From contig OZ244065.1 of the NCBI GenBank assembly GCA_965215505.1, positions 4,192,001 through 4,256,000 on the forward strand: a stretch of 64,000 bases of DNA, in the 5' to 3' direction. A model generated the notes under the pieces. The model made no database searches and was not told the origin of the DNA. It saw only the letters and a list, made by a program, of their open reading frames with translations. Made by a program: the position numbers and the translations under genes. The DNA comes from Capsulimonadaceae bacterium (lineage in GTDB: Bacteria > Armatimonadota > Armatimonadia > Armatimonadales > Capsulimonadaceae). Of this stretch, positions 27,346 through 60,462 are shown piece by piece. How positions within the stretch are numbered: the stretch's first letter is position 1; each line of letters starts with the position of its first letter.

Positions 27346-28983
27346 ATGAAAGTCGAACCCATGAAGATCAAAGGCGCGATCCTCTACACCCGTGTGAGTA
27401 CCGGCGACCAAGACAAGAACGGGACGAGCCCGGAGACTCAGCTCGCCTCTTGCCGGGACAAGGCCCTGACCCTGAGCCTGCCCATTATCGCTGAGTATCA
27501 CGACGGCGGCATCAGTGGGGGCTACCTGCTGACGCGCCCCGGGATGCAGACCGCCCTCGCCGACATCCTGGCGGGGCGGGCCGACACGCTCATCTGTGCC
27601 AACATCAGCCGCTACAGCCGCGACGTGGAACACCAGCAGGCCATCAAGAAGGCCGTCCGTGCCGCCGGAGGCCGCATCGTCTTCTGCGACATGGACTTCG
27701 ACGACACGCCCGAAGGGAACCTGGCCCTCGGCATCATGGGCGGCTTCGCGCAGTACGAGAGGGCCGTCATCAAGGACCGGACCATGAAGGGCAAGCGCAA
27801 GCGGGCGGAGGAGGGGCAGCAGCCCCAGCACAGCACCCCGGCCTACGGCTACCACATCGTCACCAACGCCCAGGTGGAATGCGGCCTCTACCCGCCCGAG
27901 ATGCGGGGGCGTTACGTCGTCATTGAAGAGGAGGCCGCGGTCGTGCGGGAGCTGTTCGCCGCCTACGCCGCCGGGGGCGTCGGATGCGCGCCGCTCGCCC
28001 AGCGGCTGAACGCCCGGCGCGTCCCCGCCTCACGGGGCGGCCTCCGGCACCCCGTCTGCGTGTCCATCATCCTCCGGAACCCCGTCTACAAAGGACAGCC
28101 CGCCTACGGGCGCGTCGCCCGCGCCCTCGGCGAGCCGGGGCCGGACGACCGCAACCAGCTGACCGGGCGGCCCCTGCTGCGCCCCCGCGCCGTCGAAACG
28201 CCGGGCAAGCAGCCCGTCGCCCTGTCGGCTCCCCCGCTCGTTTCGGCGGAGCTGTGGGAAGCGGCGCAGGCCCGGCTCGCCGAAAACCGGGGGCGGCTCG
28301 TCGGCAGCCTCAAACAGGCACGGATGCTCACCGGCCGGGTGGAATGCCCCTGCGGCCACCGCGCCGCCATCGTCGGCGGCCGGGGCAAGAAAGCCTACCA
28401 ATGCTTCGCCGAACAGCAGAGCCGGTTCTTGCGCGGGACCTCGGCTTGCAGCGCCGCCACCTATTCCCTGCCCCGGACGGAGCAGAGCGTCATCCGCTCC
28501 CTCCAGAACGCCGCCGAACATCCCGAAGCCATCGCCGCCGCCGTGCAGGCCTATCAGTAGCCGGAAGCCGGCACGCAAAACAACGCGGACGCCGCCGACC
28601 TGCGCCGGGAACTCGCCGCCATGGACGCCGCCGCCGCCCAGATCAAGCAGGAAGAGGCCGCCGCCGTGCAGGCGCAGATCTCCGGGATTTAGGCCGGAGC
28701 CAGCCCGGACGCTTACGCCGCCGTGTTCGCCGGCCTCGCCGCCCGCCGCAAAGGCCTGGAAGACCGGCGCAGGACTGTCGCGCGGAGCCTGGGAACCCAA
28801 AGCCAGAAAAAAGGCGGGCTGACGATATCAGCCCGCCGGGACGATGCCGGACTGGCCCAACAGGCCCTCCGGGACATGGCCCGCGTCCTCTCGTCCGACG
28901 CCGTGCCCGGACGGGAGAAGCGCGACCTCGTCGGCCGCATCATCGCCCGGGTCGTGTGCCGGCCGGACGGGGCCGACGTCTAA
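27346..28983 (+). pseudogene. Large serine recombinase (resolvase, recombinase, Zn-ribbon and coiled-coil domains) with in-frame stops
   Basis: YTRVST catalytic Ser, SRYSR, AYGY, ILRNPVYKG, PPLVSAELWE.AQ and LTGRVECPCG. The coiled-coil continues in frame past TAG 28558-28560 and TAG 28690-28692 to EKRDLVGRIIARVV. Confidence 0.85.
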
Positions 28984-31282: not shown

Positions 31283-32842
31283 ATGCCGCGAACGCAGCAA
31301 CAAGAAAGCGCACAAGATGGCCTGAACGAAACCACGACACAGGCGGCGCAGGAGGAGCGGGGGAAGCTGCGAAGCCATTTCGGGCGGCGCGACATCCTCT
31401 TCTACCTCATCTGCACCCTCGTCGGGATGGATACCATCGGCGCGGTCGCCAAGAACGGCGCGCAGGGGTTCACCTGGCTCGCATTTTTAGGCGTCTTCTT
31501 CTTCCTGCCCTACGGCTTGCTGACCGCCGAGCTGGGGGCCGCCTTCACCGCCGAGGGCGGGCCGTATGTCTGGACGCGGCTGGCCTTCGGGCGGCTGGCT
31601 GGGGCGATCACCGCCGTACTCTACTGGGTGTCAAACCCGATCTGGGTGGGCGGGTCACTGTGCATCACCGCCGTCACCGCCTTCGGGGACTTCGTCACGC
31701 CCCTGCACGGGGCCGCCAAGTACGCCTTCGCGCTGGCCTTCATCTGGCTGTCCGTCGGCTCCGCCGTCGTCTCGCTGAGAGTCGGCAAGTGGCTCCCGAC
31801 GGCGGGGGCCTGGGCGCGGATCGCCGTCCTGTCCTTCTTCACCTTTACCGTCGGGCTTTACGCCGCCCGGCACGGGGTCCACGGGTTCCACGGACACGAC
31901 TTCTCCCCGACTTATGCCGTCTTCATCGCCGCCGTACCCGTGCTGGTCTTCAACTACACCGGCTTCGAACTGCCCAACGCGGCGGGGGAGGAGATGCGGC
32001 ACCCGCAGCGGGACGTACCTGCGATGGTGGCCTGGTCGGCGGGGTGGACGCTGCTGCTGTACGGCCTGCCCATCCTGGCCGTCCTGCTCGTCCTGCCGGC
32101 CGGCGAGGTGACGGGCTTGGGCGGGTTCCTGGACGCGGTGAAGGCGGTCTTCACCGTCTACGGCGGGACGGTCGGGGCGGGGGGAGCGGTGACGCTGACG
32201 GGGTGGGGGAAGGCGGCGGGCGAGGTCGCCATGCTTGCCTTCCTGCTGGCGACGCTGTCGAGCGGGAGCGCGTGGCTGATGGGAGCGGACCGCATCCTGG
32301 CCGTGGCCGCCTATGACGGGGCGGGGCCGCGCGCCCTGGGCCGGTTCTCGGCCCGCTTCGGGACGCCCCTGACGGTCAACCTGATCTCGGGGGCCGTGTC
32401 CACGCTGACGATGCTGCTGGCGTTCCGGTTCTCGCACGGCAGCGCGGAGCAGTATTTCTCCGCCGCCATCGCTCTTGCGATCTCGACCGAGACGCTGGCC
32501 TACCTCGCCATCTTCCCCGCCTTCCTCCGGCTGCGCTACGTTCAGGGCGGCGCGCGCCGTCCCTACCGCGTGCCGGGCGGCCTGGCGGGTGCCTGGGTCT
32601 GCGGCGGGCTGACCACGGCGTGGGCGGGGCTGGCGACGGTCGGCCTGATCTGGCCCGGCTTCGGCATCGGCTGGTTCGGCACGGCAGGCCGGGGGGACGA
32701 CGCCCTGCCGGGCGGCTTCGCGCACCAGCGTCTGGCCTACGAGCTGATCCAGAACGTGCCGCTGGGCCTGTTCGTGCTTCTGGGCCTGCTGTTCTACCGG
32801 CTGGGCAGGCCGACTCGCGAGGAGGCCGCACCGCCGGCCTAG
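31283..32842 (+). CDS. APC-family amino acid permease
   Basis: AELG.AF..EGGPYVW.R.AFG, GFEL and multiple TM segments. Confidence 0.9.
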   Translation: MPRTQQQESAQDGLNETTTQAAQEERGKLRSHFGRRDILFYLICTLVGMDTIGAVAKNGAQGFTWLAFLGVFFFLPYGLLTAELGAAFTAEGGPYVWTRLAFGRLAGAITAVLYWVSNPIWVGGSLCITAVTAFGDFVTPLHGAAKYAFALAFIWLSVGSAVVSLRVGKWLPTAGAWARIAVLSFFTFTVGLYAARHGVHGFHGHDFSPTYAVFIAAVPVLVFNYTGFELPNAAGEEMRHPQRDVPAMVAWSAGWTLLLYGLPILAVLLVLPAGEVTGLGGFLDAVKAVFTVYGGTVGAGGAVTLTGWGKAAGEVAMLAFLLATLSSGSAWLMGADRILAVAAYDGAGPRALGRFSARFGTPLTVNLISGAVSTLTMLLAFRFSHGSAEQYFSAAIALAISTETLAYLAIFPAFLRLRYVQGGARRPYRVPGGLAGAWVCGGLTTAWAGLATVGLIWPGFGIGWFGTAGRGDDALPGGFAHQRLAYELIQNVPLGLFVLLGLLFYRLGRPTREEAAPPA

Positions 32843-32923
32843 CCTACCCCTTCAGCACCAATGTCTCTAGAGAGTGCGCCGGGCTGCTGACCTTCACCGC
32901 CTTGCGGGAGGCACGGATGGCAA

Positions 32924-34030
32924 TCAAGGTTTCACGATCCTTCGCAGCAGCGACGCCCAATGGACGCCGTAAAGGGTGAGGAACGTCAGCGCATAGTGCG
33001 CGGCGTTGCCGGCCGTCGGGCGGGGCTGGCCCGGCGTCCACTGTGTCGGGCGTGGGACTTCCGGCGGGTCGAACCGGTCAAAGTAGTGATGGCTGATGAG
33101 CCATTGGCGCGACGGGAAGACGATGCGCCACAGGGCATGGGCGCGGGCCTGGGGGCTTCCGAGCAGGTGCCAGAGCAGCGGGAGACGCAGGCGCTCGGTC
33201 CGGGCGGCGGCGACGTCCTCGATGCTGTCGGCGGCGCGCGCCTCGCTGATCCGCTCCAGGCGAGCGCGCCCGGCGCGTGGCGCGAGCGAATCCAGAACTT
33301 CGAGCGGGACGGGCGTTCCCAACAGCCGCGCCGCCGCGAACAGGGCGGCGAAGCAGGCCGTGGATGCCCCCGCCGATCCGGCGATGCGGACGAACAGCGG
33401 CCAGTCCACTGTGCTGACCGAGCAGACCTGTGCGATGTCGCGCAAGGACTGCGAGGCGGCCAGGGAGTGCCCCGCTAGGTGCAGGCAGAGGTGAAGTATC
33501 TGGTCTTCCGTCCCGAGTACCCGCCCGTCCGTTCCCGCCAGACGCGCCGGCCGGGCGCGGTCCCACAGGCCCGCGTCATCAACGTGGAACTTGCCGAAGA
33601 AGAGGTCGTTATTGATCAGCTCGGTGTGCAGCTCGACCACTATAGGGCCACGCTCCGTGTGGTTGAAAAAGTTGGCCTGACAGTCGCGGCCCCGGATGAC
33701 CTCCTCCCATTGCAGGGGATCAACGACATACCCCAGCGAATCCAGCAGCGTCCGGGCGCGGGCGGCGTCTTCTGGGCGCACCAGCACGTCCAGGTCTCCG
33801 AACCGGCGCAGGCTGGGGCGCGGGTAGACCGTCTCGGCCAGCGCCGCCCCCTTGAGGACGAGCAGGTCCAGTTTTGCCTCGGTGCAGAGACTCAGCAGAG
33901 CGGCCAGGTGCGGGCGGAAGAAAGCGAACTGGACGAGGGCCGCGACTTCCTCCAGCGCCTCTCCTTCGGGGAGGCGCTGGGCGAAGGGAAACTCCGTTCC
34001 TGTTTGGCTTGCATCAAGGGTGAGAAACAT
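32924..34030 (-). CDS. Nucleotidyltransferase family protein (type found in lasso-peptide/PqqD neighbourhoods)
   Basis: LKGAALAETVYP....R.FGDLDVLV, VELH, HLCLH and LRDI. Start position uncertain. Confidence 0.85.
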   Translation of the reverse strand: MFLTLDASQTGTEFPFAQRLPEGEALEEVAALVQFAFFRPHLAALLSLCTEAKLDLLVLKGAALAETVYPRPSLRRFGDLDVLVRPEDAARARTLLDSLGYVVDPLQWEEVIRGRDCQANFFNHTERGPIVVELHTELINNDLFFGKFHVDDAGLWDRARPARLAGTDGRVLGTEDQILHLCLHLAGHSLAASQSLRDIAQVCSVSTVDWPLFVRIAGSAGASTACFAALFAAARLLGTPVPLEVLDSLAPRAGRARLERISEARAADSIEDVAAARTERLRLPLLWHLLGSPQARAHALWRIVFPSRQWLISHHYFDRFDPPEVPRPTQWTPGQPRPTAGNAAHYALTFLTLYGVHWASLLRRIVKP

Positions 34031-34045
34031 AAAAACCCGAGAAGG

Positions 34046-34085
34046 CCCGCCGACCTTCCCCGAAAGATGAGGAAAGTCGGCAGGC
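34046..34085 (-). terminator. Stem-loop between the 34152-34916 gene and the nucleotidyltransferase
   Basis: Imperfect inverted repeat CCCGCCGACCTT...AAGTCGGCAGG, followed on the minus strand by a pyrimidine/T-rich tract. Confidence 0.4.
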
Positions 34086-34151
34086 CGCCGATTTGCGCTC
34101 CTTAGGTGAGTGCAAAAGCCTGGTTCCCGCGAACCACTTCAGCCCTGTCCT

Positions 34152-34916
34152 CTACCTGCCGGTCCGATCCACGCATTTGCCGCGCGGGCCTGGGAGGAAG
34201 CCGGCGCAGCAGGGGAGCGAGTTGTTGATGTAATTGTAGGTCTGCCCATGCGCGGCACAGGGGAGGGACACACTCGCCGGACCGACATAGAAATCGTTGC
34301 TGTTGATCCCCGTCGCCGGTGAAGAAGTGCTGCTGATGGTGGCCCGCGTGATTAGGTTGTTCACGTTCGTCTGCGCCCCGACAAAAACTGCGGTCCCGGC
34401 GGATGAGGTGTTGTCCGTCGGCCCGAAGGTGAAACTGCCTAGCGAGGTGTTCCCGTTGAAGACGGTCAGCGTGAAGGTTTCCGTGTCCGCATTGAAGTCC
34501 TGGGCGAATAGCCCGAACCCGGTGACACCGTTCTGGAAGCTGATCTGGAGAGGCCCCGTGGCCGTGGGGCTGACGGAGCCGTTGAAGAGTTCTTCCAACA
34601 CGTTCCCCGACCCGAACTGCGGGCCGACCGTCAAGTCAGAGGTGTAGCTCTGAAACCCGCCGCCCGGTGTACCGTTCGTTGCCGAATAGGTCAGGGTGTT
34701 GGTGCCCGCTGTCACTGTGAACGAGGACGGTCCGCTCGCGCCGCTCCCGGAGGTAGTGGGGTAGGGGGCCGTCTGGACAGGGCTGAACAATTGGCTTGGG
34801 CTGGTCACTATCGTGGCCTGCCCCTGTACCGCACGCCAGCCCAGGGTCGCGAAGGTGCAGAGCGCGAGCGCAGTCCATAAGGAGCTGTTGAGGCGGTTTT
34901 TGTGATGGTTGTTCAT
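34152..34916 (-). CDS. Secreted beta-rich protein (paralogue of the PEP-CTERM protein at 35877-36704) ending in a 4-Cys tail instead of an anchor
   Basis: Signal peptide. Shares GPLQI.F.NGV..FGLF.Q, FVGAQ, NLITR and DFY.GP with the PEP-CTERM protein. Tail is CAAHGQT...PCC.G..PGPRGKCVDRTGR. Confidence 0.8.
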   Translation of the reverse strand: MNNHHKNRLNSSLWTALALCTFATLGWRAVQGQATIVTSPSQLFSPVQTAPYPTTSGSGASGPSSFTVTAGTNTLTYSATNGTPGGGFQSYTSDLTVGPQFGSGNVLEELFNGSVSPTATGPLQISFQNGVTGFGLFAQDFNADTETFTLTVFNGNTSLGSFTFGPTDNTSSAGTAVFVGAQTNVNNLITRATISSTSSPATGINSNDFYVGPASVSLPCAAHGQTYNYINNSLPCCAGFLPGPRGKCVDRTGR

Positions 34917-35242
34917 GGTAATCCTTTCGAGCCAGTGCTGTTGCCTCCACTCAAGCTCCTTCGTCTCGTTTCAGTGCCGGGCTTCCACCCCGCCGTTGTC
35001 TCGCTGCCCAATCAGGACTTCATAACTTTCCTGCCATTGTACCCGATTCGTTCGCGATTTTTCTTTCACTACGCGGCGGACCCAGCCAGACGGAGGAAGA
35101 CTGAATCCGGAGGAAGATTGAGTCAGGAGGAAAACTAAATCAGGAGGAATGCGTCATGCAGGCAGGTGACGGAGTAGTAACCAGAGGCGGCCTGCCGCTT
35201 GCTCCCGGAGGCAGGGCAAATGCAACAGGCCGTCAGAACTTG

Positions 35243-35279
35243 AAAAGCCGGGGCGGCATCCCGTAAAACCGCCCCCGGC
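35243..35279 (-). terminator. Rho-independent terminator after the PqqD-fusion gene
   Basis: Minus strand reads GCCGGGGGCGG-loop-CCGCCCCGGC followed by TTTT. Confidence 0.55.
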
Positions 35280-35327
35280 AGATATGCCTCGGGAGTATGC
35301 TTACATGGCTCGGGAGTATGCTTGGGG

Positions 35328-35843
35328 TCAGCGTCCAGTCCGGTCAACACATTTGCCGCGTGGTCCGGGGGAATATCCTGAGCAGCAGGGACGTATGGTG
35401 CCTGTTGCCAGGCCGGTGTAGTCAAAGGTCTGCCCGTGTCCAGCACATCTAGTAGACGCCGCCATCGCGGGCGTCGGGGCGACCATGCTCTGGACCACCG
35501 GCAAGAGGAGGGACACACCGCCGACCAAGGCCGCCTTCTGAAGTACCTGTCTTCGCGTGACTCGTCTGGCCTCTTCCGCTCGTACCAGCGGGATTTGCAG
35601 CAGGTGTTCTTTTCCCAAACGGTCCAGCGCAAGCCAGACCATGTCCTCGGTCACCGGTGTTGCCATCTCGCCTTGCAGGGTTTCCACAAGAGCGGCCACC
35701 GTATGCCGGCCATCGCAGTGACGCCAGACCATCGCAGCGGTCCGGTTCAGACGGTGAACATGGTCACGCTGCTCATCATAAATGATGGTTTCATCACCGA
35801 TCTCCTGGACGACAAGGCGGTCCGCTCGTGCTTGTGGTTTCAT
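35328..35843 (-). CDS. PqqD/RRE-domain protein fused to an internal Tat signal and a Cys-rich C-terminal peptide (putative RiPP precursor-RRE fusion)
   Basis: Residues 1-85 show a PqqD fold (E.IIYD....H.LN.TAA.VW..CDG..TV). TRRQVL at 96-101 is followed by a hydrophobic stretch and AMA-AS, then a ~42-aa 4-Cys peptide. Confidence 0.8.
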   Translation of the reverse strand: MKPQARADRLVVQEIGDETIIYDEQRDHVHRLNRTAAMVWRHCDGRHTVAALVETLQGEMATPVTEDMVWLALDRLGKEHLLQIPLVRAEEARRVTRRQVLQKAALVGGVSLLLPVVQSMVAPTPAMAASTRCAGHGQTFDYTGLATGTIRPCCSGYSPGPRGKCVDRTGR

Positions 35844-35876
35844 TGCTTTCCTATCTCAGCACTTTCCAAATGTCGG

Positions 35877-36704
35877 CTAGCCGGCGGCCTTCTGCGCGGA
35901 CTGTCGGCCGGCGTTCACCTTACGCCGGCGCGCGGAAAGGACGACGCCGGCGAACAGCAGCGTTCCCATGCCGAAGCCCACGACGGTCGAAGCCTCCGGG
36001 ACTGGAGCCGTGAACTGGTAGCTGATGGGGCCGAAGTAGAAGTCGCCTGTCGCGGTGGTGTTGGACATGTCCGTCAGGACGACCCTGGTGATCAGGTTCC
36101 CCGCCAGGGCTTGGGCGCCGACGAACGTCGCGTTGCCCCCTTGAGTCGGCCCGGAACCGGACGTGTTGAGTACGTCCAGAGTAGAGAAACTGCCGAGTGG
36201 GATGGTGCCGTTGGGGCCGCCAAAGACGGAAAAGTTGAAGTGGTATGTGTCTGTACCAGCGGACTGTCCGAAAAGGCCGAATTCATTGACGCCATTGCTG
36301 AAGTCAATCTGGAGAGGCCCAGTCGGAGGCGCGGTCGCTTTAGACGTGTTAAAGTCGAAGGTTTCGATCAGATGTGTCGCGTAAGGAAAAGCATTCGTGT
36401 CGAGCGCCGGCAGGTTCGTGATCGGGTTGGGTTGGTTGACGAAGGTGTCGAAGGCGGTGGCACTCGCCGGCTCAGTCTGCGATGTGAACGTCACCCCCGT
36501 TCCGGGAGAATTCAGCAAGTAGCCAGAAGGGAGCGTCCCGTTGGTGGTGTCAAACTGCGGCGTCATGCTCGCCCCCGGCCCCAGCTGGGATGGCATCGTG
36601 AGCTGGGTCGCCAGTTGTGCCTGGGCCGCCCGTCCGCCTAGGGCTGTGAGGGCGCAGAGCGTGACGGCGGCGGCGAGTTGCTTGCTGTGATCGTATTTGT
36701 GCAT
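35877..36704 (-). CDS. PEP-CTERM sorting-domain surface protein
   Basis: Signal peptide ending AQA; C-terminal PVPEAST, TM helix and ARRRK. Confidence 0.88.
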   Translation of the reverse strand: MHKYDHSKQLAAAVTLCALTALGGRAAQAQLATQLTMPSQLGPGASMTPQFDTTNGTLPSGYLLNSPGTGVTFTSQTEPASATAFDTFVNQPNPITNLPALDTNAFPYATHLIETFDFNTSKATAPPTGPLQIDFSNGVNEFGLFGQSAGTDTYHFNFSVFGGPNGTIPLGSFSTLDVLNTSGSGPTQGGNATFVGAQALAGNLITRVVLTDMSNTTATGDFYFGPISYQFTAPVPEASTVVGFGMGTLLFAGVVLSARRRKVNAGRQSAQKAAG

Positions 36705-36901
36705 GGTAGTTTCTTTCAAAAGTCTTTATGGTCTACGCCCACGCCTCCAGGGGCGCGAGTGGCTGCGGGTAAACCCATGCACCATCGGCTGCACGGGTGA
36801 GAAAACGGGCAGCGCCCGAAAACTGTTATCGCTTGGGAAGCCTTCTTCACAGGTTTCGTTGCGCGGCGTCGCGGGATGTCCCCGAACGTGGGCAAAATTC
36901 T

Positions 36902-37828
36902 TTAGCGCTCTGGCCCGTCCCCGCCGGCCTCTTCCCCACATAAGCGTTCCCGCAGCCAGGCGACAACCCGGTCGGCCTCGCCCCGCTTGCTCTGGAACGC
37001 CTCGGCACCGAGGGCCGCTCTCTGAAGAATCTGCATCGCCGCCTGCGGCTGCCGGCGGACCTGGACGGTGTTGTCCAGCAGTGTCAGCATCGCCCGGCCC
37101 GGCGATTGGGGCCGGGGCCGCCAGCGCGCGCCCGCCTCGTACCGGGCCGCGAGGATCATCCCGACCGGCAGCGGCCCGGTCGCGGCCCGCCCGCCCAATG
37201 CCTCGACGGGGACCGTCTCGCCCGGCCCGCCTTCCGCGTCCCGGAGTGACAGGGGCCGGGCGTAAGGGTGGACATGGCCGCCCTCGTCGAAGACCGCATA
37301 CTCGTCGGAGAAGTATGTCGCCCCCGCCGCCGCCAGGGCCGCCACCAGGCTACTCTTCCCGCTGAAGGTACGCCCCGGAATGACCACGGCTTTCCCGCCC
37401 CACCCGACGACGCCGGCGTGGACGAAGAGACGGTCCCGCGCCTGCTCCGCCACCTGCCCGTGCAGGCCGGAGGTCAGCGCCTGGATGGCCTCGTCCGCCC
37501 TGCGCGTGTGCGCCACCCGGCAGGTCCCCCGGTACAAAAAATAGTGCGGCTCGGGATGCGCCCGCGACCGGCTCTCCACCACGGCCAGCGAGAACAGGCC
37601 GTCCACGGTCGGTGTGGGGGCAGGCTCCGCGCCGGGCGGCAGGTGATCCGTCAGACGATCGAGCAGCGCGGCGTCCGTGGCGCGGACGCCGATCCGGGCA
37701 CCGTGACTGACGAAGGCCAGCCCGGCCGCCCAGCGGAACCTCTCCAGAGCCTTCCAGCAGGGGGAGGAAGCGTCGGGCGGCTGTTCCAGCGTCGGCAGCC
37801 GCGCCCCATCTCTTTGCTCGACCGTCAC
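36902..37828 (-). CDS. HprK-related P-loop Ser/Thr kinase
   Basis: FVHAGVV, Walker A GRTFSGKSS, YFSDEYA and PY.RPL. Confidence 0.85.
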   Translation of the reverse strand: MTVEQRDGARLPTLEQPPDASSPCWKALERFRWAAGLAFVSHGARIGVRATDAALLDRLTDHLPPGAEPAPTPTVDGLFSLAVVESRSRAHPEPHYFLYRGTCRVAHTRRADEAIQALTSGLHGQVAEQARDRLFVHAGVVGWGGKAVVIPGRTFSGKSSLVAALAAAGATYFSDEYAVFDEGGHVHPYARPLSLRDAEGGPGETVPVEALGGRAATGPLPVGMILAARYEAGARWRPRPQSPGRAMLTLLDNTVQVRRQPQAAMQILQRAALGAEAFQSKRGEADRVVAWLRERLCGEEAGGDGPER

Positions 37829-38132
37829 GGACTTCTTTATCCCCGCATCTTACCCATTCCGACGGTGCGTTTTCCGCAAGGCGCGCTACAGTTCCGAACG
37901 CCACTCGCCCCGATGCCGCGAGTGCAGGCACAGAGGGTAAGGCTCCGGAAGGCGCGTCCGGCGATGGGTTTCCTTTACTCTTCACTGCACAAAGAATGCC
38001 AAAGTGAGGGAAACAGGCTAATCGGGAGAGTTTTCTTAGAAATATTTTTTCGTCCCCGATGAACGTCCCCTTTGGGCGAGGCGAAGGTAAATGGTCGCCG
38101 GTCTGGCAGCGGATTAGGTATACTGATTTGAT

Positions 38133-39944
38133 ATGCCTAGACAGCCTTATCCCCACACGCGAACACCCACGGAGGCCCGGCGAACTGGGCAGCGGCGACG
38201 CTCGGCGGGCGGAGGGTCCTCTGCGGGGAGCTGGCTCGCCGATCATGCCCTCCTCGTCTGCCTCTCCGGCCTCCTCGTCCTCGCCTTCCTGGCCGAGATG
38301 CCCTGGCTGTCCCGGCCCCTGCGGTCCCACCTGCTGCAAGCTGCCGTTGTCCTGATCTATACCCTGATCGCCGCCGCAGGCCCCGCCTCGGGCCGGGTGA
38401 CCCGTGACTCCCTGCGCGGCCCCTCCCTCTGGCTGCTCGGGCTGCTGGCCTGGAGCGGCCTGAGCGCCGCCCTCGCGCCGTACCCCGCCTTTGCCGCCTC
38501 CGAGCTGCTGCGGCTCGCCCTGGGCGCGGGCGTCTACTTCGTGGCGGCCCACGTCCTGCGGCCCCACGAGGCGCGGCTCCTCCCCCTCTTCCTGCTCGGC
38601 CTGGGCGCGGCCGTCGGCCTGTACGGCCTGATTGAATTCGGGGCGGAAGGCAACTTCGGCACCGGGGCGATCCACAGCGTCTTCGGCAACCACGAGCAGC
38701 TCGGATCGTTCCTCGTCCTCCTGCTGCCGCTCGGGCTGGCGCTCGCCCTGGACCGCAGCGAGGGGTTAAAGAAGCGCCTGCTGTTCGCGCAGGGCGCGGC
38801 CCTGGTCATCGGCGCGGCCCTGCTGCTGGCGCGCACCCGCTCCGCCTGGCTCGGGGCGACGGCCGGGCTTGTCCTGCTGGCCTTCCTGACATTGCGCTAT
38901 TCGTCCATCCGGCTGACCCGCAGCAACCGCGCCCTCGTCATCGGCCCGGCGCTGATTCTGGTGCTGGCCTTCACGGGCCTGCTCGTCTTCGGCGAACTCG
39001 CCCCGCTCGTCTCGCACCGGGCAGCGACCCTGGCGCACGCGGGCGATGACACTTCCCTCGCCGACCGCCTGCACCGCTGGCGGTCGGCCTGCCGGATGGC
39101 CTCCGAAAAGCCGGTCACCGGCTGGGGCCTGGGCGCGTGGCCGGTCATGCAGGGGCGCTGGACGCACCAGGGCGACGACGTCAGCGAGGTGCTGGGGGCG
39201 GGTACGGGCCATTCCAACCTCGCCCACAACTTCTGGGCGCAGTGGGCCGCCGAGACGGGCGGGGTCGGCCTGGCCCTCCATCTCGGCGTCCTGGCCGCTT
39301 TCCTGCTGGCGGGCCTGCGCGCGCTGCCCCGACTGGACCGGGAGCGGCGGACTTTGCTCCTAGGCTGCCTCGCCGCCGCCGCAGCGGGCGGCGTGGACAT
39401 GGCCGGTGCCCCCTCCTACACCTTCCCCGGCGTCTCCTCCCTGTTCTGGGTCACGCTGGGCCTGGGCGTCGCCCTGCTGCCCGGACCCGGCGGGGCGCGG
39501 GCGACGCGCCGTTTCGACTGGCTGATTCCCCTGAGCGCTGGACTCGCCGCCGCCCTGGCCGTTGTGGGCATCGGCGACAGGCTCCGCGCGGACGGGCGGG
39601 CGGCCCCGCGCGGGACCCTGACCGTGACCGCCCAGCCGCCCGGCCCGGTCGCGCCCGGAACGCGTGTCCTGTGGACCGCCACCTACCATGCCCCCGACGG
39701 CACGGCCCGCCCGACCGCGCCAGGCACCGTCTGGAAGGTCACGGAAGGCGGCCTGACGAAGACCAGCCCGACCTTCCTGTTCCTGAACCGGGAACCCCAG
39801 CGCTCCGGCTGGCAGGGCAACATCGCCCCCGGTGTGAGCCGGGTGACAGTAACGGCGTACTACTGGGACCAGTTCAGCCGCCCCTACCAAGTTTCTTTGC
39901 CTGTGGCCGTCAAAACTGTCAAAAACCCTGTTGCAAATCCGTAA
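38133..39944 (+). CDS. O-antigen ligase-like (Wzy_C) membrane protein with C-terminal soluble domain
   Basis: SVFGN, TRSAWLG, R...W......EKP.TGWGLG and AHN.W.Q..AETG.VG. TATACT lies 8 nt upstream of the ATG. Confidence 0.85.
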   Translation: MPRQPYPHTRTPTEARRTGQRRRSAGGGSSAGSWLADHALLVCLSGLLVLAFLAEMPWLSRPLRSHLLQAAVVLIYTLIAAAGPASGRVTRDSLRGPSLWLLGLLAWSGLSAALAPYPAFAASELLRLALGAGVYFVAAHVLRPHEARLLPLFLLGLGAAVGLYGLIEFGAEGNFGTGAIHSVFGNHEQLGSFLVLLLPLGLALALDRSEGLKKRLLFAQGAALVIGAALLLARTRSAWLGATAGLVLLAFLTLRYSSIRLTRSNRALVIGPALILVLAFTGLLVFGELAPLVSHRAATLAHAGDDTSLADRLHRWRSACRMASEKPVTGWGLGAWPVMQGRWTHQGDDVSEVLGAGTGHSNLAHNFWAQWAAETGGVGLALHLGVLAAFLLAGLRALPRLDRERRTLLLGCLAAAAAGGVDMAGAPSYTFPGVSSLFWVTLGLGVALLPGPGGARATRRFDWLIPLSAGLAAALAVVGIGDRLRADGRAAPRGTLTVTAQPPGPVAPGTRVLWTATYHAPDGTARPTAPGTVWKVTEGGLTKTSPTFLFLNREPQRSGWQGNIAPGVSRVTVTAYYWDQFSRPYQVSLPVAVKTVKNPVANP

Positions 39945-56651: not shown

Positions 56652-57578
56652 CTATATCAAAAAGTTTCGCGTACTTGGCAAAGCGTTGTATAGCCCTATT
56701 TTAGACAAGATTTTGTAGAAATTGATGTTCAGAATTAGTCTTGGATTGAGGCGAATGGCGTCTAAGAACTTCCCATTGCCTTGCAACCCCCGTCGTGCTT
56801 GATTCAGGCGTTCATAGACGATACGGGAGCTATAAACTTGGCGAATGTGCTGCTTACTTTTGGCAATACTGATTCGGCATTGCAAACAGTCCTTGTGGCT
56901 GTGGGAATGTTTTTGAAGTACCTGAAATAATTCCCTCGCGATGCGGAGATGGTTGCGGCTTGTCAAACTGCTGTCATGCACACGATAGCAGGAAAGTACT
57001 TCAGGGATAACAGCCACTTCGTTGTGCAGCGAAATTCGCAGCCACAAATCCCAATCTTCCCCGGTCCGCAATTGGGTGTCAAAAGGGCTGACTTTAGGCA
57101 AGGCATTCCGGCGAACCACAGCAGTGAGTGTGCCAACAGTGCAGTGTTCAAGAAGGCTATGAAAGACGTAGCCTTCTGTATGAAAGCGCTTTTCTTGTAG
57201 GTTGCCGTCACTATCTACCCAGACATGATAGGAGTGAACTAAGCCTACCTTTGGATTTGTGAAGGCTGGGATTTGGCGTTCCAATTTGTTTGGCAGCCAA
57301 TAATCGTCAGCGTCTAGGAACGCAAGGTATTCACCTGTCGAAGCGGCAATTGCTGCATTACGGGCGGCTGAGACTCCACTGTTTTTCTGACGGATGAAGG
57401 TGATTCGAATGCCGTAGCGCTCGGCGACGGTACAAGAGGCATCAGTTGAGCCATCATCTACGACTATAATCTCTACGTTAGAGTAAGTCTGTGCAAGAAC
57501 ACTCTCTATAGCCTGAGATAAGTAGGCTTCGGCGTTGTAGCAGGGAATAATGACGCTGACCTTTGAAGGAATAAACAT
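56652..57578 (-). CDS. Glycosyltransferase family 2
   Basis: VSVIIPCYN, DDGSTD, FLDADD and EDWDLW. Confidence 0.92.
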   Translation of the reverse strand: MFIPSKVSVIIPCYNAEAYLSQAIESVLAQTYSNVEIIVVDDGSTDASCTVAERYGIRITFIRQKNSGVSAARNAAIAASTGEYLAFLDADDYWLPNKLERQIPAFTNPKVGLVHSYHVWVDSDGNLQEKRFHTEGYVFHSLLEHCTVGTLTAVVRRNALPKVSPFDTQLRTGEDWDLWLRISLHNEVAVIPEVLSCYRVHDSSLTSRNHLRIARELFQVLQKHSHSHKDCLQCRISIAKSKQHIRQVYSSRIVYERLNQARRGLQGNGKFLDAIRLNPRLILNINFYKILSKIGLYNALPSTRNFLI

Positions 57579-57615
57579 CGTCGTACTCGATAGTATGTTG
57601 AGAACAAGAATAATT

Positions 57616-58554
57616 CTAACTACTCTTACTTTTGATTAGATCAGCCTTCTGATAATATCTTGGTCGCCTTCTCTCAATGAGCCACTGTTTGTGAAAATTA
57701 ATTTCTTGTACCAGTTCCATTTCCCACAGAGGCATCCCTTCTCTTGAACATTCTTGCGCCTTTACAGCACGCAAAAAGACTAACTGAATGATATGTTTGA
57801 GCAGGCGCACATAGCAAAAAGAATTATGGGAGTGATAATAATGATGAGCGACATAGGCGCTTACTCTTCCGAACTTCTCTGCGGTGGTAATAAACCCTGC
57901 ACGCGACAATCTCGACGCATCGCAATGATGCACGACCACGGTTTCTAGCGCAGCTCTGAGTCTATATCCTGCATCAAACAGCTCCCAGGTAAACAATGTT
58001 TCATCGCCAAAGCCCATCGCTCCTGGTCCCAATTCAACATTGAACTGGGGTACTTTAGTCAACACTTTCCGCGAGAACGCCATATTTGCACCCACCATAC
58101 GATTGGGTTTGTCCGCATCTAGGCCTTCGGTACTTGCTAACCAGTTCCGATGAAGTGTCTTCATCCACGGGCGCTCTAAGTGCGTTGCGAGCCTTACCCC
58201 GCCTGCCATAGCCTCCGCCTCATCCCGCAAAATTGGCCCGCACATTCCCTCGATCCAATTCTTCGGAGGCCGCACATCGTCATCGGTGAACAGAAACACC
58301 TCGCCCTGGGCCGCCGCCATCCCTGCGTTGTACGCATAGCCCTTGCCCTGCCGGGGTTCATGGATGTAGCGTACCGACATATTCGGCAGATGACAGGACG
58401 CGACAACTTCGGCAGTCGCGTCGGTGGAAGCATTATCCACTACCAACAGTTCGGTGGGCATTTGCTTTGGAACATGGAGTTGGGCAATCGCCGCCAGCGT
58501 CTGCTGTAGGTCATTAGCGCGATTACAGGTGCAGAGAATGATTGAGACAATCAC
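57616..58554 (-). CDS. Glycosyltransferase family 2
   Basis: SIILCT.NR, DNASTD, FTDDD and GANMAF. Confidence 0.9.
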   Translation of the reverse strand: MIVSIILCTCNRANDLQQTLAAIAQLHVPKQMPTELLVVDNASTDATAEVVASCHLPNMSVRYIHEPRQGKGYAYNAGMAAAQGEVFLFTDDDVRPPKNWIEGMCGPILRDEAEAMAGGVRLATHLERPWMKTLHRNWLASTEGLDADKPNRMVGANMAFSRKVLTKVPQFNVELGPGAMGFGDETLFTWELFDAGYRLRAALETVVVHHCDASRLSRAGFITTAEKFGRVSAYVAHHYYHSHNSFCYVRLLKHIIQLVFLRAVKAQECSREGMPLWEMELVQEINFHKQWLIERRRPRYYQKADLIKSKSS

Positions 58555-58557
58555 GGT

Positions 58558-59526
58558 TCATCTTTTTCCAGTCAAAATCGGTTTCATTGCTTGGCAAGCG
58601 GGCCTTGCCCATTTTGGAAGAACCTGAGACCGGCCTGTTGTATGATCTAATATAAGACGCGCTCGTTTTCTTGGTCTCTGTGCCTGGTATTTTTCTTCAT
58701 TCGCTTCTATTTCGCGCGAAATCATGTTGAACAAGTTATGATCGTTCAGCACGCGCCGCCTTGCTTCAGCGATGGCATCCATGTTACGCTCTCGTAAATC
58801 ACTGTTGATAACACCACGCAAAAAAGCAGTCGGGTTGGATGTTTCAGGGTCTAGCTGTATGTAGGAATTCTTTGGAAAGAAGCGATCTAATTCAGTACAG
58901 CCATAATAGATAGGCATTGTCCAAGCAAGGAAGCAATCCATGACCTTTTCACTCCAATAGTGACTATTGGAGTAGTTCTCAAAGGCAATGGAATAGCGGT
59001 ATGGTGCTAACCCCTCCCATTTGCCAGCTATCGGGGTATATCCACGGCCATAAAGGTCCAGTTCAGCCATTCCCCGAACTTTGTCTAGGAAAGTCAAACG
59101 GTATTTATGTCCAGTGAATAGTGAATTGTTACTTGTCACCCAGGAAAGGGGATGGGTTTTTTCGCAGGGGGGGCAGGTGCTGAGATAATCGTAGTCTTGA
59201 TCAACCCACCACGGTAGGTATGAGTAACTCAGGATGTGCTTATCACTCACTCTTCCCGAATCGGTCATGTAAGCCCGATCAATGTTTCCCCAAATTTTAT
59301 GCCAAGGTTCAGCGAGTTCATGTGGAGCCTCGCCCATCACAAGCCAAATATGCCCTTTGGGACACCTGACCCATGATGGCTTTTTTACATGACCATGAAC
59401 AACCACATAATCTGCTTCACCGGGTTCATCAATGATGAAGCGAATGCCGTTCCATATACCTTTGCCGCCTGGCGTCTGGCGAAAAAGATCCGGGTATTTC
59501 CAATATTTAAGAATCCGTACTAGCAT
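58558..59526 (-). CDS. GT10-family (alpha-1,3/4-fucosyltransferase-like) glycosyltransferase
   Basis: YRYSIAFEN....YWSEK..D......PIYYG. Confidence 0.85.
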   Translation of the reverse strand: MLVRILKYWKYPDLFRQTPGGKGIWNGIRFIIDEPGEADYVVVHGHVKKPSWVRCPKGHIWLVMGEAPHELAEPWHKIWGNIDRAYMTDSGRVSDKHILSYSYLPWWVDQDYDYLSTCPPCEKTHPLSWVTSNNSLFTGHKYRLTFLDKVRGMAELDLYGRGYTPIAGKWEGLAPYRYSIAFENYSNSHYWSEKVMDCFLAWTMPIYYGCTELDRFFPKNSYIQLDPETSNPTAFLRGVINSDLRERNMDAIAEARRRVLNDHNLFNMISREIEANEEKYQAQRPRKRARLILDHTTGRSQVLPKWARPACQAMKPILTGKR

Positions 59527-59585
59527 TGTTGCAGAAAGAAATCACATGCGGCATTGTTATGAAGGGCTATATCCATAATATGTTT

Positions 59586-60431: not shown

Positions 60432-60462
60432 TAAAAAGCCTTTTTGACAAAGAAATGAAAAC

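What the first reader, a model, noticed from the sequence alone, without database searches (positions are those of the whole stretch)
34152..35447. Same 4-Cys C-terminal module on two unrelated proteins, conserved at protein level but not at DNA level
34152-34262 encodes CAAHGQTYNYINNSLPCCAGFLPGPRGKCVDRTGR and 35328-35447 encodes CAGHGQTFDYTGLATGTIRPCCSGYSPGPRGKCVDRTGR. The last 13 residues (PGPRGKCVDRTGR) are identical, yet 9 of the 13 codons differ synonymously, which points to purifying selection on both copies rather than a recent duplication. The module exists as a free peptide (Tat route) and as a tail on a larger Sec-type protein. It may be a new sorting, assembly or recognition tag, or a small disulfide-bonded binding domain loosely reminiscent of CBM1/knottins.
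Basis: seen in the sequence. Interest (0 to 1): 0.8.

Follow-up and report, generated by a model that had tools for sequence, protein, structure and literature searches.

The report
Matched cysteine mini-domain on two secreted proteins
A small four-cysteine domain is the exported end of an unusual chaperone-plus-signal-peptide protein, and a second copy, kept matched to the first, replaces the anchor of a neighbouring surface protein; it points to a large, undescribed family of secreted bacterial peptides.

Summary
In detail: two minus-strand genes end in the same 4-Cys module. Their last 13 residues are identical, and 9 of those 13 codons differ synonymously.

The interpretation needs correcting.
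- The "free Tat peptide" is the C-terminal cargo of a 171-aa protein: a PqqD/RRE domain, an internal twin-arginine-type signal ending in an AXA site, then the module.
- This protein belongs to a large unnamed family (599 representatives at E<=1e-30). Heads are conserved; cargoes are hypervariable and mostly have an even number of Cys.
- The gene sits beside an HprK-like kinase and a PF14907 nucleotidyltransferase across several phyla.
- The 254-aa carrier is a paralogue of the adjacent PEP-CTERM protein, with the sorting signal replaced by the module. This fusion arose once (9 of 9 in one clade).
- Seven genomes or contigs hold both carriers. Same-genome module copies are more alike (0.74) than random pairings (0.51), and only 2 of 5040 pairings reach that value.
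- DNA shows recent conversion in two lineages. In the window the pair is old and under purifying selection.

A general sorting tag is unlikely, because each genome has only two copies. The biochemical role of the kinase, the transferase and the module is inferred, not shown.

The parts
36902..37828 (-). HprK-like P-loop kinase (308 aa), first gene of the cassette
   Evidence: TIGR04352 HprK_rel_A, E 3.2e-20, 72.4 bits, below the cut-off of 200. No Pfam family. No PDB sequence relative at E<=0.01. A homologue lies next to the PqqD-type gene in 13 of 14 same-order loci and in 17 of 17 distant loci.
35877..36719 (-). PEP-CTERM jelly-roll protein (280 aa), paralogue of the 254-aa carrier
   Evidence: 38% identity to the 254-aa protein over 233 columns, E 1e-23. 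PEP-CTERM PF07589 scores 16.5 bits, below the cut-off of 20.7. The PEP motif, hydrophobic helix and basic tail are visible in the translation. Ten of 10 cassette homologues read in relatives end in PEP-CTERM.
35328..35843 (-). 171-aa precursor: PqqD/RRE domain, internal twin-arginine-type signal, 4-Cys cargo
   Evidence: ORF. Full-length relatives at 48-69% identity in 17 of 23 same-genus genomes. Alignment A1.
35610..35816 (-). PqqD / RiPP-recognition-element domain (residues about 10-78)
   Evidence: PF05402, E 1.8e-9, residues 18-63. The AF2 model has three strands and three helices with pLDDT 71-80. The best Foldseek PDB hits are lasso B1 RREs with bound leader (5v1u, TM 0.63-0.65 on the target, E 4.6e-3); none reaches E<=1e-3.
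35460..35561 (-). Internal twin-arginine-type signal segment (residues 95-128): RR motif, h-region and the family's most conserved stretch, ending in AXA
   Evidence: TIGR01409 TAT_signal_seq scores 16.5 bits against a cut-off of 16.7, and 14 of 18 family members match at E<=0.05. In 150 family members R97 is 1.00, R98 0.99, P115 0.97, P123 0.96 and A128 0.91; segment 115-128 has a mean top-residue frequency of 0.70 against 0.62 for the PqqD domain. Position -3 is Ala in 108 of 122 and position -1 is Ala in 119 of 122.
35328..35459 (-). Cargo (residues 129-171 plus stop); the 4-Cys module starts at Cys133 (35447)
   Evidence: No Pfam family at E<=10. No PDB sequence match at E<=10. pLDDT 61-73.
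34917..35327 (.). 411-bp spacer between the two carriers, with 3 tandem 17-nt units (35091-35141) and 2 units of 19 nt (35284-35323)
   Evidence: Function not tested.
34152..34916 (-). 254-aa Sec-type secreted jelly-roll protein ending in the second module copy
   Evidence: ORF. No Pfam or NCBIfam family. In the AF2 model the body has pLDDT 85-95 and the tail 46-56. Foldseek gives weak likeness to DUF4465/BtuJ and CBM32/CBM6 jelly rolls, TM 0.3-0.5. Eight relatives at 64-87% identity also end in a 4-Cys module.
34152..34262 (-). Second module copy (Pro219 to Arg254 plus stop), in the place of the PEP-CTERM signal
   Evidence: In alignment A3, Pro219 and Ala221 align with the P and A of the paralogues' P-E-A motif; tails shown. 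Codon comparison.
32924..34030 (-). PF14907 (NTP_transf_5) nucleotidyltransferase (368 aa), last gene of the cassette
   Evidence: PF14907, E 2.1e-38, 132.8 bits. No PDB sequence relative. Found next to the PqqD-type gene in 9 of 14 same-order loci and in 14 of 17 distant loci by tblastn. Pfam confirms it in 7 of the 8 distant loci scanned.

Best explanation
The module is a small extracytoplasmic 4-Cys domain present twice in one conserved cassette.

Copy 1 is the cargo of a 171-aa precursor. The precursor has a cytoplasmic PqqD/RRE domain, then an internal twin-arginine-type signal whose last 14 residues are the most conserved part of the family and end in an AXA signal-peptidase site, then the cargo.

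The precursor belongs to a large unnamed family found in Armatimonadota, Acidobacteriota, Gemmatimonadota, Abditibacteriales and a cyanobacterium. The head is conserved. The cargo is hypervariable and usually has an even number of Cys. The gene is flanked by an HprK-like kinase and a PF14907 nucleotidyltransferase.

Most likely course (inferred):
- The RRE, the kinase and the transferase act on the precursor in the cytoplasm. The nearest precedent is lasso-peptide tailoring, where an HprK homologue phosphorylates the precursor and an uncharacterised nucleotidyltransferase is needed to add hexose to that phosphate.
- The signal then takes the C-terminal part across the membrane.
- Signal peptidase cuts after the AXA site.
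- A disulfide-bonded mini-protein of about 43 residues is released.

Copy 2 arose once. The jelly-roll body of a PEP-CTERM paralogue was joined in frame to the cargo-coding end of a PqqD-type gene, at the Pro of the PEP motif. The gene order fits a tandem duplication of the pair followed by a deletion.

The result is a Sec-exported soluble jelly-roll protein that displays the same module instead of an exosortase signal. The two copies are kept alike by occasional gene conversion and by purifying selection on both. This is most simply explained if both are read by the same lineage-specific partner outside the cytoplasm.

Shown here: the architecture, the family, the synteny, the single origin and the concerted evolution. 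Inferred: export route, cleavage, disulfides, what the kinase and transferase modify, and the shared partner.
For: Architecture:
- PF05402 above its cut-off.
- RR motif and TAT_signal_seq just under the cut-off, with 14 of 18 members matching at E<=0.05.
- One TatC gene in the genome.
- An RRE-like fold whose best PDB hits are lasso B1 proteins.

Family:
- 8847, 4828 and 599 representatives at E<=1e-3, 1e-10 and 1e-30.
- Of the best 150, 122 reach the end of the head model. Among these, position -3 is Ala in 108, position -1 is Ala in 119, and an RR motif is present in 110.
- Median tail length is 46 aa. Ninety-six tails have at least 4 Cys, and 92 of those 96 have an even number.

Synteny:
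- In 14 same-order loci, the kinase is present in 13, the transferase in 9 and a PEP-CTERM paralogue in 10.
- In 17 distant loci, the kinase is present in 17 and the transferase in 14.
- Pfam of 50 ORFs in 8 distant loci shows otherwise unrelated neighbours.

Second carrier:
- 38% identity to the PEP-CTERM neighbour.
- 9 of 9 Cys-tailed bodies form one clade (support 100/99) among 31 PEP-CTERM rows.
- The same gene order is seen in the window, G012 and L089.

Concerted evolution:
- With six pairs, the own-genome partner is the best match in 6 of 6 both ways. Same-genome identity is 0.75 against 0.52-0.53 for the same carrier between genomes, and 1 of 720 pairings reaches the observed value.
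- With seven pairs, identity is 0.737 against 0.512, and 2 of 5040 pairings reach the observed value.
- Codon identity at identical residues is 17/23 in G012 (expected 9.4; 5 of 5000 simulations reach it) and 18/26 in L089 (expected 7.3; 0 of 5000). In the window it is 12/24 (expected 10.8; not significant).
- The cargo changes faster than the head: pN 0.353 against 0.223, higher in 111 of 120 pairs.

Precedent (passages read):
- PMC8498205 and PMC6993621 for kinase and nucleotidyltransferase tailoring.
- PMC11626156 for RiPP precursors with a cleaved Sec signal and 4-6 Cys.
Against: - No experiment or expression data; no RNA run was listed.
- The signal is internal, after an 85-residue folded domain. 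That is not the usual place for a Tat or Sec signal, and no signal-peptide predictor was available.
- The window's TAT_signal_seq score is 0.2 bits under the cut-off.
- The lasso precedent does not transfer directly. A C-terminal Ser, the phosphorylation site in paeninodin and pseudomycoidin, ends only 7 of 122 cargoes. No lasso cyclase or protease is nearby.
- About 20 of 122 cargoes have 0-1 Cys, so disulfides are not universal in the family.
- The Sec-exported 254-aa carrier is unlikely to meet the cytoplasmic kinase and transferase. If these modify the cargo, the two copies would not be chemically alike.
- Gene conversion alone can make copies alike without any shared partner.
- dN/dS of the cargo is below 1 wherever it could be measured, so diversifying selection is not shown.
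- Four of the seven genome pairings rest only on equal source and contig length.
- AF2 confidence in the module is low.
Confidence: 0.6

Rival explanations
1. The 171-aa protein is not cleaved. It is a bitopic membrane protein with the RRE inside and the Cys module outside. The module binds the jelly-roll protein, or the identical module on it, and passes a signal to the kinase and transferase in the cytoplasm.
For: - The RRE, the kinase and the transferase have no signal sequences of their own (translations), so they would sit on the cytoplasmic side.
- A jelly-roll gene lies directly upstream of the PqqD-type gene in 10 of 14 same-order loci.
- The fusion of a jelly-roll body to the module can be read as a Rosetta-stone hint that body and module work together.
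- The matched copies would follow from homotypic or shared binding.
Against: - Ala at -3 (108 of 122) and at -1 (119 of 122), directly before a hypervariable part, is what a signal-peptidase site looks like. A plain membrane anchor would not need it.
- In most phyla the cassette has no jelly-roll gene.
- The AF2 model of the fused protein does not pack the tail on the body with any confidence (pLDDT 46-56).
Confidence: 0.15
2. The module is a new C-terminal sorting or attachment tag that took over from PEP-CTERM.
For: - It replaces the PEP-CTERM signal exactly at the PEP motif.
- The cassette lies next to polysaccharide genes: Wzy_C and GT4 genes in the window.
- GT4 homologues lie beside the kinase gene in 7 of 14 same-order loci.
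- The genome has 3 exosortase genes.
Against: - There are only two copies in 6.18 Mb. Known sorting tags mark many proteins per genome (recalled, not tested).
- On the first carrier the module follows a signal-peptidase-type site, so it would be a tag with nothing attached.
- The module varies strongly between genomes (0.52 identity), and across the family the cargo has no common motif.
- No candidate sorting enzyme is conserved in the cassette.
Confidence: 0.1
3. The second copy is a passenger. A duplication and deletion happened to join a jelly-roll gene to the cargo end, and gene conversion keeps the copies alike without any function for the tail on the 254-aa protein.
For: - The gene order fits a tandem duplication plus deletion.
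- There is significant excess codon identity in G012 and L089.
- Tail types disagree with the body tree: P0155 groups with P0161 by body but carries the window-type tail.
Against: - The fusion is kept in 9 lineages, with bodies 64-87% identical and short branches.
- All 4 Cys and the flanking Gly, Gln and Pro are invariant in the 9 tails.
- In the window lineage the synonymous sites are saturated, yet the last 13 residues are identical.
- Carrier-specific loop differences are retained in the sister lineage. This points to long purifying selection without conversion.
Confidence: 0.1

Closest known systems
Lasso-peptide tailoring set: RRE (B1/PqqD-like) with an HprK-family kinase (PadeK, PsmK) and an uncharacterised nucleotidyltransferase (PsmN)
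   Same: - The same three protein kinds lie side by side.
- The RRE fold is closest to lasso B1 proteins.
- In that system the kinase phosphorylates the precursor, and the transferase is needed to add hexose to the phosphate (passages of PMC8498205, and PMC6993621).
   Different: - No lasso cyclase, no B2 protease and no ABC exporter are nearby.
- The RRE is fused to the presumed substrate.
- The substrate carries a twin-arginine-type signal.
- A C-terminal Ser is not conserved (7 of 122).
- Whether PsmN belongs to PF14907 was not tested here.
HPr-rel-A system of TIGRFAMs/NCBIfam (TIGR04352 HprK-related kinase A, TIGR04353 PqqD family peptide chaperone)
   Same: These are the best-scoring named models for the kinase, and they match 6 of 18 PqqD-type members. 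Both systems pair a kinase with a PqqD protein.
   Different: - All scores are far under the curated cut-offs (72.4 against 200 bits).
- Here the PqqD protein carries a signal and a cargo.
- I found no paper on that system. What is known of it beyond the model names is recalled.
Bufferins: RiPP precursors with a cleaved Sec signal and 4-6 Cys, with an RRE-containing partner
   Same: An exported small Cys-bearing protein-like core that uses a general export signal instead of a dedicated exporter, with an RRE in the pathway (passages of PMC11626156).
   Different: - There is no MNIO or DUF2063 gene among the window's cassette genes or among the ORFs scanned in 8 distant loci.
- In bufferins the RRE is on a separate protein and the signal is N-terminal and Sec-type.
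PEP-CTERM / exosortase sorting
   Same: The body of the 254-aa carrier is a paralogue of PEP-CTERM proteins. The genome has 3 exosortase genes.
   Different: The carrier has lost the PEP motif, the helix and the basic tail. The module has none of these features.

Membership tests
PqqD / RiPP recognition element (PF05402) | Profile match above the gathering score | tested here: met
   38.3 bits against a cut-off of 23.4, residues 18-63. Precomputed PF05402 is listed on all 120 relatives shown.
PqqD / RiPP recognition element (PF05402) | Winged-helix fold of three strands and three helices | tested here: met
   AF2 gives strands 10-15, 18-23 and 28-32 and helices 34-42, 49-59 and 66-78. The best PDB hits are TbiB1 and another lasso B1, at weak E-values (4.6e-3).
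PqqD / RiPP recognition element (PF05402) | Binds a leader peptide | not testable with these tools
   The complex prediction could not be run because the queue was full.
Twin-arginine (Tat) signal peptide (TIGR01409) | S/T-R-R-x-hydrophobic-hydrophobic motif followed by an h-region and AXA | tested here: met
   T-R-R-Q-V-L-Q-K at residues 96-103. An RR motif is present in 110 of 122 family members, and A at -3 and -1 in 108 and 119 of 122.
Twin-arginine (Tat) signal peptide (TIGR01409) | Profile score over the curated cut-off | tested here: inconclusive
   16.5 against 16.7 bits for the window's protein. Fourteen of 18 members match at E<=0.05, best 2.3e-4.
Twin-arginine (Tat) signal peptide (TIGR01409) | Located at the N-terminus of the exported protein | tested here: not met
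   It starts at residue 95, after a conserved folded domain.
Twin-arginine (Tat) signal peptide (TIGR01409) | Tat machinery present | tested here: met
   One TatC match over the cut-off in the genome.
Lasso peptide gene cluster | Asn-synthetase-like cyclase and transglutaminase-like leader protease near the RRE | tested here: not met
   Neither appears among the Pfam hits of 21 window ORFs between 20.5 and 50.7 kb or of 50 ORFs in 8 distant loci.
Lasso peptide gene cluster | C-terminal Ser as the kinase's site (phosphorylated subclass) | tested here: not met
   The last residue is Ser in 7 of 122 cargoes. The window's cargo ends in Arg.
HPr-rel-A system (TIGR04352 / TIGR04353) | Equivalog scores over the cut-offs | tested here: not met
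   The kinase scores 72.4 bits against 200 and 60.7 bits in the genome search. PqqD_rel_X matches only 6 of 18 members at E<=0.05.
PEP-CTERM sorting signal (PF07589) | PEP motif, hydrophobic helix and basic cluster at the C-terminus | tested here: not met
   The 254-aa protein has no PF07589 hit and its tail has no such features. The 280-aa neighbour has them, at 16.5 bits, below the cut-off of 20.7.
Knottin / CBM1-like cystine mini-domains | Match to a known Cys-rich domain profile or solved chain | tested here: not met
   Zero Pfam families at E<=10 for either tail. Zero PDB sequences at E<=10. The module has four Cys, while a cystine knot needs six (recalled).
Anti-phage defence systems (PADLOC) | Any cassette protein matching a defence model | tested here: not met
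   Zero families for all five proteins.

The most novel reading that the evidence does not exclude
The cassette defines a new class of ribosomal secreted peptides. The recognition element is fused in cis in front of a twin-arginine signal. The ultra-conserved end of that signal doubles as the leader that the RRE holds. The kinase and the nucleotidyltransferase act on this segment or on the cargo, and so gate export. In the window's lineage the fast-changing cargo and its matched copy on a surface-type jelly-roll protein form a lineage-specific ligand and display pair, for example for self-recognition, immunity or attachment to the cell's own polysaccharide.
Probability: 0.2. Interest if true: 0.85.

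Novelty: new variant of a known kind. Interest (0 to 1): 0.72.

Why it matters
If the reading is right, thousands of soil and freshwater bacteria make small disulfide-rich secreted proteins by a route not yet described. In it an RRE domain, a general export signal and the product lie on one polypeptide, and only a kinase and a nucleotidyltransferase accompany them.

That would add a new precursor architecture to RiPP-like biology. It would also give the orphan PF14907 and HprK-like families a substrate to test, and offer a natural library of hypervariable cystine mini-proteins.

The matched second copy is a clean natural case of concerted evolution of a 35-residue domain across two unrelated carriers. 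It can be used to find the module's partner.

Two cultured carriers of family members, Silvibacterium bohemicum S15 and Pannus brasiliensis CCIBt3594 (record titles), make experiments possible.

Tried and rejected
- Complex prediction: not run. I first asked for jelly-roll body plus cargo, then for RRE plus signal segment. Both questions stay open.
- Expression: no RNA holder was listed for 34100-36750, and no reads were laid.
- Known domain for the module: none in Pfam at E<=10 or in PDB sequences at E<=10.
- Defence system: no PADLOC match.
- Solved relatives of the kinase and the transferase: none at E<=0.01.
- Phosphorylation of a C-terminal Ser as in paeninodin: rejected as a general rule (7 of 122).
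- Positive selection on the cargo: not shown. dN/dS is 0.14-0.74 in the measurable close pairs, and dS is saturated in others.
- Lipoprotein reading: most same-genus members have S-I/V-G/S-C before the first Cys, which loosely fits a lipobox (recalled pattern). The window's clade has S-T-R/N-C, and lipidation would leave three Cys, so I dropped it.
- Terminator and promoter scan of 32800-38200: counts are at the shuffle level.
- Metagenome scan for more 254-type genes: only 1 locus.
- The word-based search with the tail alone found only 2 proteins, because it is insensitive for short variable queries.
- Literature: nothing relevant came from these searches:
  - 'PqqD' + 'twin-arginine' + 'cysteine-rich' (0 papers).
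  - 'RiPP recognition element' + 'twin-arginine' (2 papers held, the 1 listed unrelated).
  - 'HprK-related kinase' or 'PqqD' (none on this architecture among the 15 listed).
  - 'PF14907' or 'NTP_transf_5' (2 papers held, the 1 listed unrelated).
  - RRE-precursor fusion phrases.
  - 'HPr-rel-A' and related terms.
  - 'RiPP' + 'precursor peptide' + 'Tat signal peptide'.
- The RRE-Finder main text has no occurrence of 'HPr', 'kinase', 'nucleotidyltransferase' or 'signal peptide'. Its supplementary figures of candidate new clusters were not seen and might show this cassette.
Full report
**1. The observation**

Both stretches lie on the minus strand. 34152-34262 is the end of a 254-aa ORF (34152-34916). 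35328-35447 is the end of a 171-aa ORF (35328-35843).

- The last 13 residues are identical. Four of the 13 codons are the same and nine differ synonymously. The stop codons differ, and the last 60 nt are 41/60 identical.
- Over the whole module, 24 of 35 aligned residues are identical and 12 of those use different codons.
- I drew codons from each gene's own usage to ask how many identical codons saturated synonymous sites would give. The expectation is 10.8 +- 2.0 and the observed number is 12 (1787 of 5000 simulations reach it). Nothing at the DNA level ties the copies together beyond the shared amino acids.
- A six-frame pattern scan of the 6,177,771-base genome found these two copies and one off-frame chance match. 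Protein searches of the genome found no third copy.

**2. What the first carrier is**

The 171-aa ORF is not a small peptide with a long leader.

- Residues 18-63 match PqqD (PF05402, 38.3 bits, cut-off 23.4).
- The AF2 model has the three strands and three helices of an RRE at pLDDT 71-80. Its best PDB matches are lasso B1 proteins bound to their leaders, although no hit reaches E<=1e-3.
- The whole N-terminal domain is conserved in relatives (Y22, D23, H30-N33, W40, C43-G45 are invariant), so it is translated.
- A twin-arginine motif follows at residues 96-103, then a moderately hydrophobic stretch, then P-V-V-x-S-x-V-A-P-T-P-A-M-A ending at residue 128. The TAT_signal_seq model scores 16.5 bits against a cut-off of 16.7 and matches 14 of 18 family members at E<=0.05. 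The genome has one TatC gene.
- The module begins five residues after the A-M-A.

**3. The family**

A profile of 18 relatives, searched against 1.84 billion representatives, found 8847 proteins at E<=1e-3, 4828 at E<=1e-10 and 599 at E<=1e-30. Of the best 150, 122 reach the end of a head-only model. Among these 122:

- Position -3 is Ala in 108 and position -1 is Ala in 119.
- An RR motif is present in 110.
- The part that follows has a median length of 46 residues.
- Ninety-six tails have four or more Cys, and 92 of those 96 have an even number.
- About 20 have no or one Cys. Some of these are helical or low-complexity.

In an alignment of 150 members, the segment P115-A128 is the most conserved part (mean top-residue frequency 0.70). 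It is above the PqqD domain (0.62), and the cargo is at 0.21.

Only two of the 150 cargoes match a pattern for the window's module, and only one of them (P0003) is clearly alike. The sources call these proteins 'hypothetical', 'PqqD family protein' or 'PqqD family peptide modification chaperone'.

Record titles place members in Armatimonadota (the window's same-genus relatives carry titles such as Capsulimonadaceae), Abditibacteriales, Acidobacteriota, Gemmatimonadota and the cyanobacterium Pannus brasiliensis. Within the window's phylum, 16 of 151 sampled genomes have a match at E<=1e-15, in 3 families.

**4. The cassette**

In the window the order on the minus strand is:
- HprK-like kinase (36902-37828)
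- PEP-CTERM jelly-roll protein (35877-36719)
- the PqqD-type precursor
- the 254-aa protein
- PF14907 nucleotidyltransferase (32924-34030)

Polysaccharide genes (two Wzy_C, five GT4, GT87) follow on one side and an amino-acid permease on the other.

In 14 loci from the same order, a simple GC3-based gene call plus blastp found the kinase in 13, the transferase in 9 and a PEP-CTERM paralogue in 10.

In 17 distant loci, tblastn found the kinase next to the PqqD-type gene in all 17 and the transferase in 14. One of the three misses is cut by a contig end.

Pfam scans of 50 ORFs in 8 distant loci show the transferase in 7. They show nothing else in common: no lasso cyclase, no protease, no ABC exporter. 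The core is therefore a three-gene set, and the jelly-roll gene is an addition in the window's genus.

**5. The second carrier**

The 254-aa protein has a Sec-type signal and a confidently predicted jelly-roll body (pLDDT 85-95). The body is weakly like DUF4465/BtuJ and CBM32/CBM6 folds (TM 0.3-0.5).

- It is 38% identical to the PEP-CTERM neighbour.
- Where the paralogues have V-P-E-A and the hydrophobic tail, it has L-P-C-A and the module.
- It is not unique. Eight proteins at 64-87% identity also end in a 4-Cys module, while more distant relatives end in PEP-CTERM.
- In a tree of the bodies (40 rows; two rows were dropped because my motif did not find their cut point), the 9 Cys-tailed proteins form one clade (100/99) nested among 31 PEP-CTERM rows, with short branches.
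- The gene lies directly after the PqqD-type gene in the window, in G012 and in the metagenome locus L089. This is the order expected from a tandem duplication of the jelly-roll and PqqD pair followed by an in-frame deletion. That origin is inferred.
- Among 41 sampled relatives, only G012 has it besides the window's genome.

**6. The two copies evolve together**

Seven genomes or contigs hold both carriers. Three pairings are seen in DNA. Four are inferred from equal source and contig length, each protein being on a single contig.

With the first six pairs:
- The own-genome partner is the best match for 6 of 6 tails and for 6 of 6 cargoes.
- Same-genome identity across carriers is 0.75, against 0.52 and 0.53 for the same carrier between genomes.
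- Only 1 of 720 pairings reaches the observed mean.

With seven pairs:
- The means are 0.737 against 0.512, and 2 of 5040 pairings reach the observed value.
- The own-genome partner is best in 5 of 7 rows and 6 of 7 columns. The exceptions are the window and its sister lineage, which share one module type.

The bodies (0.74) and heads (0.80) are more conserved than the module. The cargo also has more non-synonymous change than the head (pN 0.353 against 0.223, higher in 111 of 120 pairs), but dN/dS stays below 1 where it can be measured.

Codon identity at identical residues:

| Lineage | Observed | Expected if saturated | Simulations reaching observed |
|---|---|---|---|
| G012 | 17/23 | 9.4 | 5 of 5000 |
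| L089 | 18/26 | 7.3 | 0 of 5000 |
| Window | 12/24 | 10.8 | 1787 of 5000 (not significant) |

So the copies exchange DNA now and then. In the window's lineage the last exchange is old. Since then both copies have kept the same 13 C-terminal residues, and each has kept its own loop, also in the sister lineage.

**7. How it most likely works**

The AXA site in front of a hypervariable, even-Cys part argues for export and cleavage, releasing a disulfide-bonded mini-protein. The RRE, the kinase and the transferase have no signals of their own and would act beforehand in the cytoplasm.

The nearest studied precedent is the tailoring of some lasso peptides. There an HprK homologue phosphorylates the precursor's C-terminal Ser, and an uncharacterised nucleotidyltransferase is needed to add hexose to that phosphate (passages of PMC8498205; PMC6993621). 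Bufferins show that RiPP precursors can use a general, cleaved export signal and carry 4-6 Cys (passages of PMC11626156).

The analogy has clear limits:
- A C-terminal Ser ends only 7 of 122 cargoes.
- No lasso core enzymes are present.
- The signal is internal.

The very high conservation of P115-A128 is more than a signal-peptidase site needs. An RRE is attached in cis, and AF2 puts a short strand at residues 117-121. Together these make me suspect that the RRE holds this segment, and that S119 or T124 could be the enzymes' target. This is speculation, and the complex prediction that might have tested it could not be queued.

Why the second copy is kept matched is open. A shared partner outside the cell is the simplest reading. 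Binding between module and jelly roll, or a neutral effect of conversion, are the rivals.

**8. Comparison and novelty**

- The parts are known kinds: RRE, HprK-like kinase, PF14907, twin-arginine signal, PEP-CTERM paralogue.
- The best named models (HPr-rel-A system) score far under their cut-offs.
- I found no paper on an RRE fused to a signal-bearing precursor, on this three-gene set, or on PF14907 in this setting. The supplementary cluster figures of the RRE-Finder paper were not seen.
- I rate it a new variant of a known kind. The matched second copy is an unusual evolutionary feature.

**9. Limits**

- Gene calls in other loci are my own GC3-based calls.
- Signal and cleavage are read from motifs.
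- AF2 confidence in the module is low.
- Four pairings are indirect.
- There are no expression or biochemical data.

Noticed in passing
window 34917-35327: The 411-bp spacer between the two carriers holds three tandem 17-nt units (35091-35141) and two 19-nt units directly after the stop of the PqqD-type gene (35284-35323). They may be regulatory sites for the 254-aa gene.
   Followed up: no
window 31283-32842 and L052:910-2322: An APC-family amino-acid permease lies next to the PF14907 gene both in the window and in a Vicinamibacterales locus. This may be chance or a loose association.
   Followed up: no
window 27346-28560: A large serine recombinase (Resolvase plus Recombinase domains) lies about 4 kb from the cassette. 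The cassette region 34-37 kb has 60-61% GC against 67-72% around it, and the PqqD-type gene has GC3 of 0.63 against 0.82-0.91 in its neighbours. This is possibly foreign or recombined DNA.
   Followed up: partly
window 57000-61000: A block of 44-51% GC sits in a 66% GC genome, at the far end of the glycosyltransferase cluster. It is probably an acquired island.
   Followed up: no
L014 / L031 (G018:C24): The PqqD-type gene has an in-frame TAG inside the cargo, and the rest of the module continues in frame. It is a pseudogene or a sequencing error. The same contig is titled Janthinobacterium lividum in its record, although its cassette is of the Armatimonadota type, so the bin label looks wrong.
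   Followed up: no
L016 (G004:C45): This PqqD-type protein has a three-fold repeat of a five-residue unit inserted in the RRE domain.
   Followed up: no
L057, L061 and G117: Some genomes carry two tandem PqqD-type genes between the kinase and the transferase. One Armatimonadota genome has five matches. So cargo genes can multiply within a cassette or a genome.
   Followed up: no
L003 vs L006 (G009, G002): Heads are nearly identical (dN 0.06) but cargoes are strongly different (dN 0.43). This suggests a cargo swap or a burst of change between close relatives.
   Followed up: no
L058:5660-6073, L061:5623-6039: In two Acidobacteriaceae loci, a small ORF of about 138 aa with no Pfam family lies between the PqqD-type gene and the transferase.
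   Followed up: no
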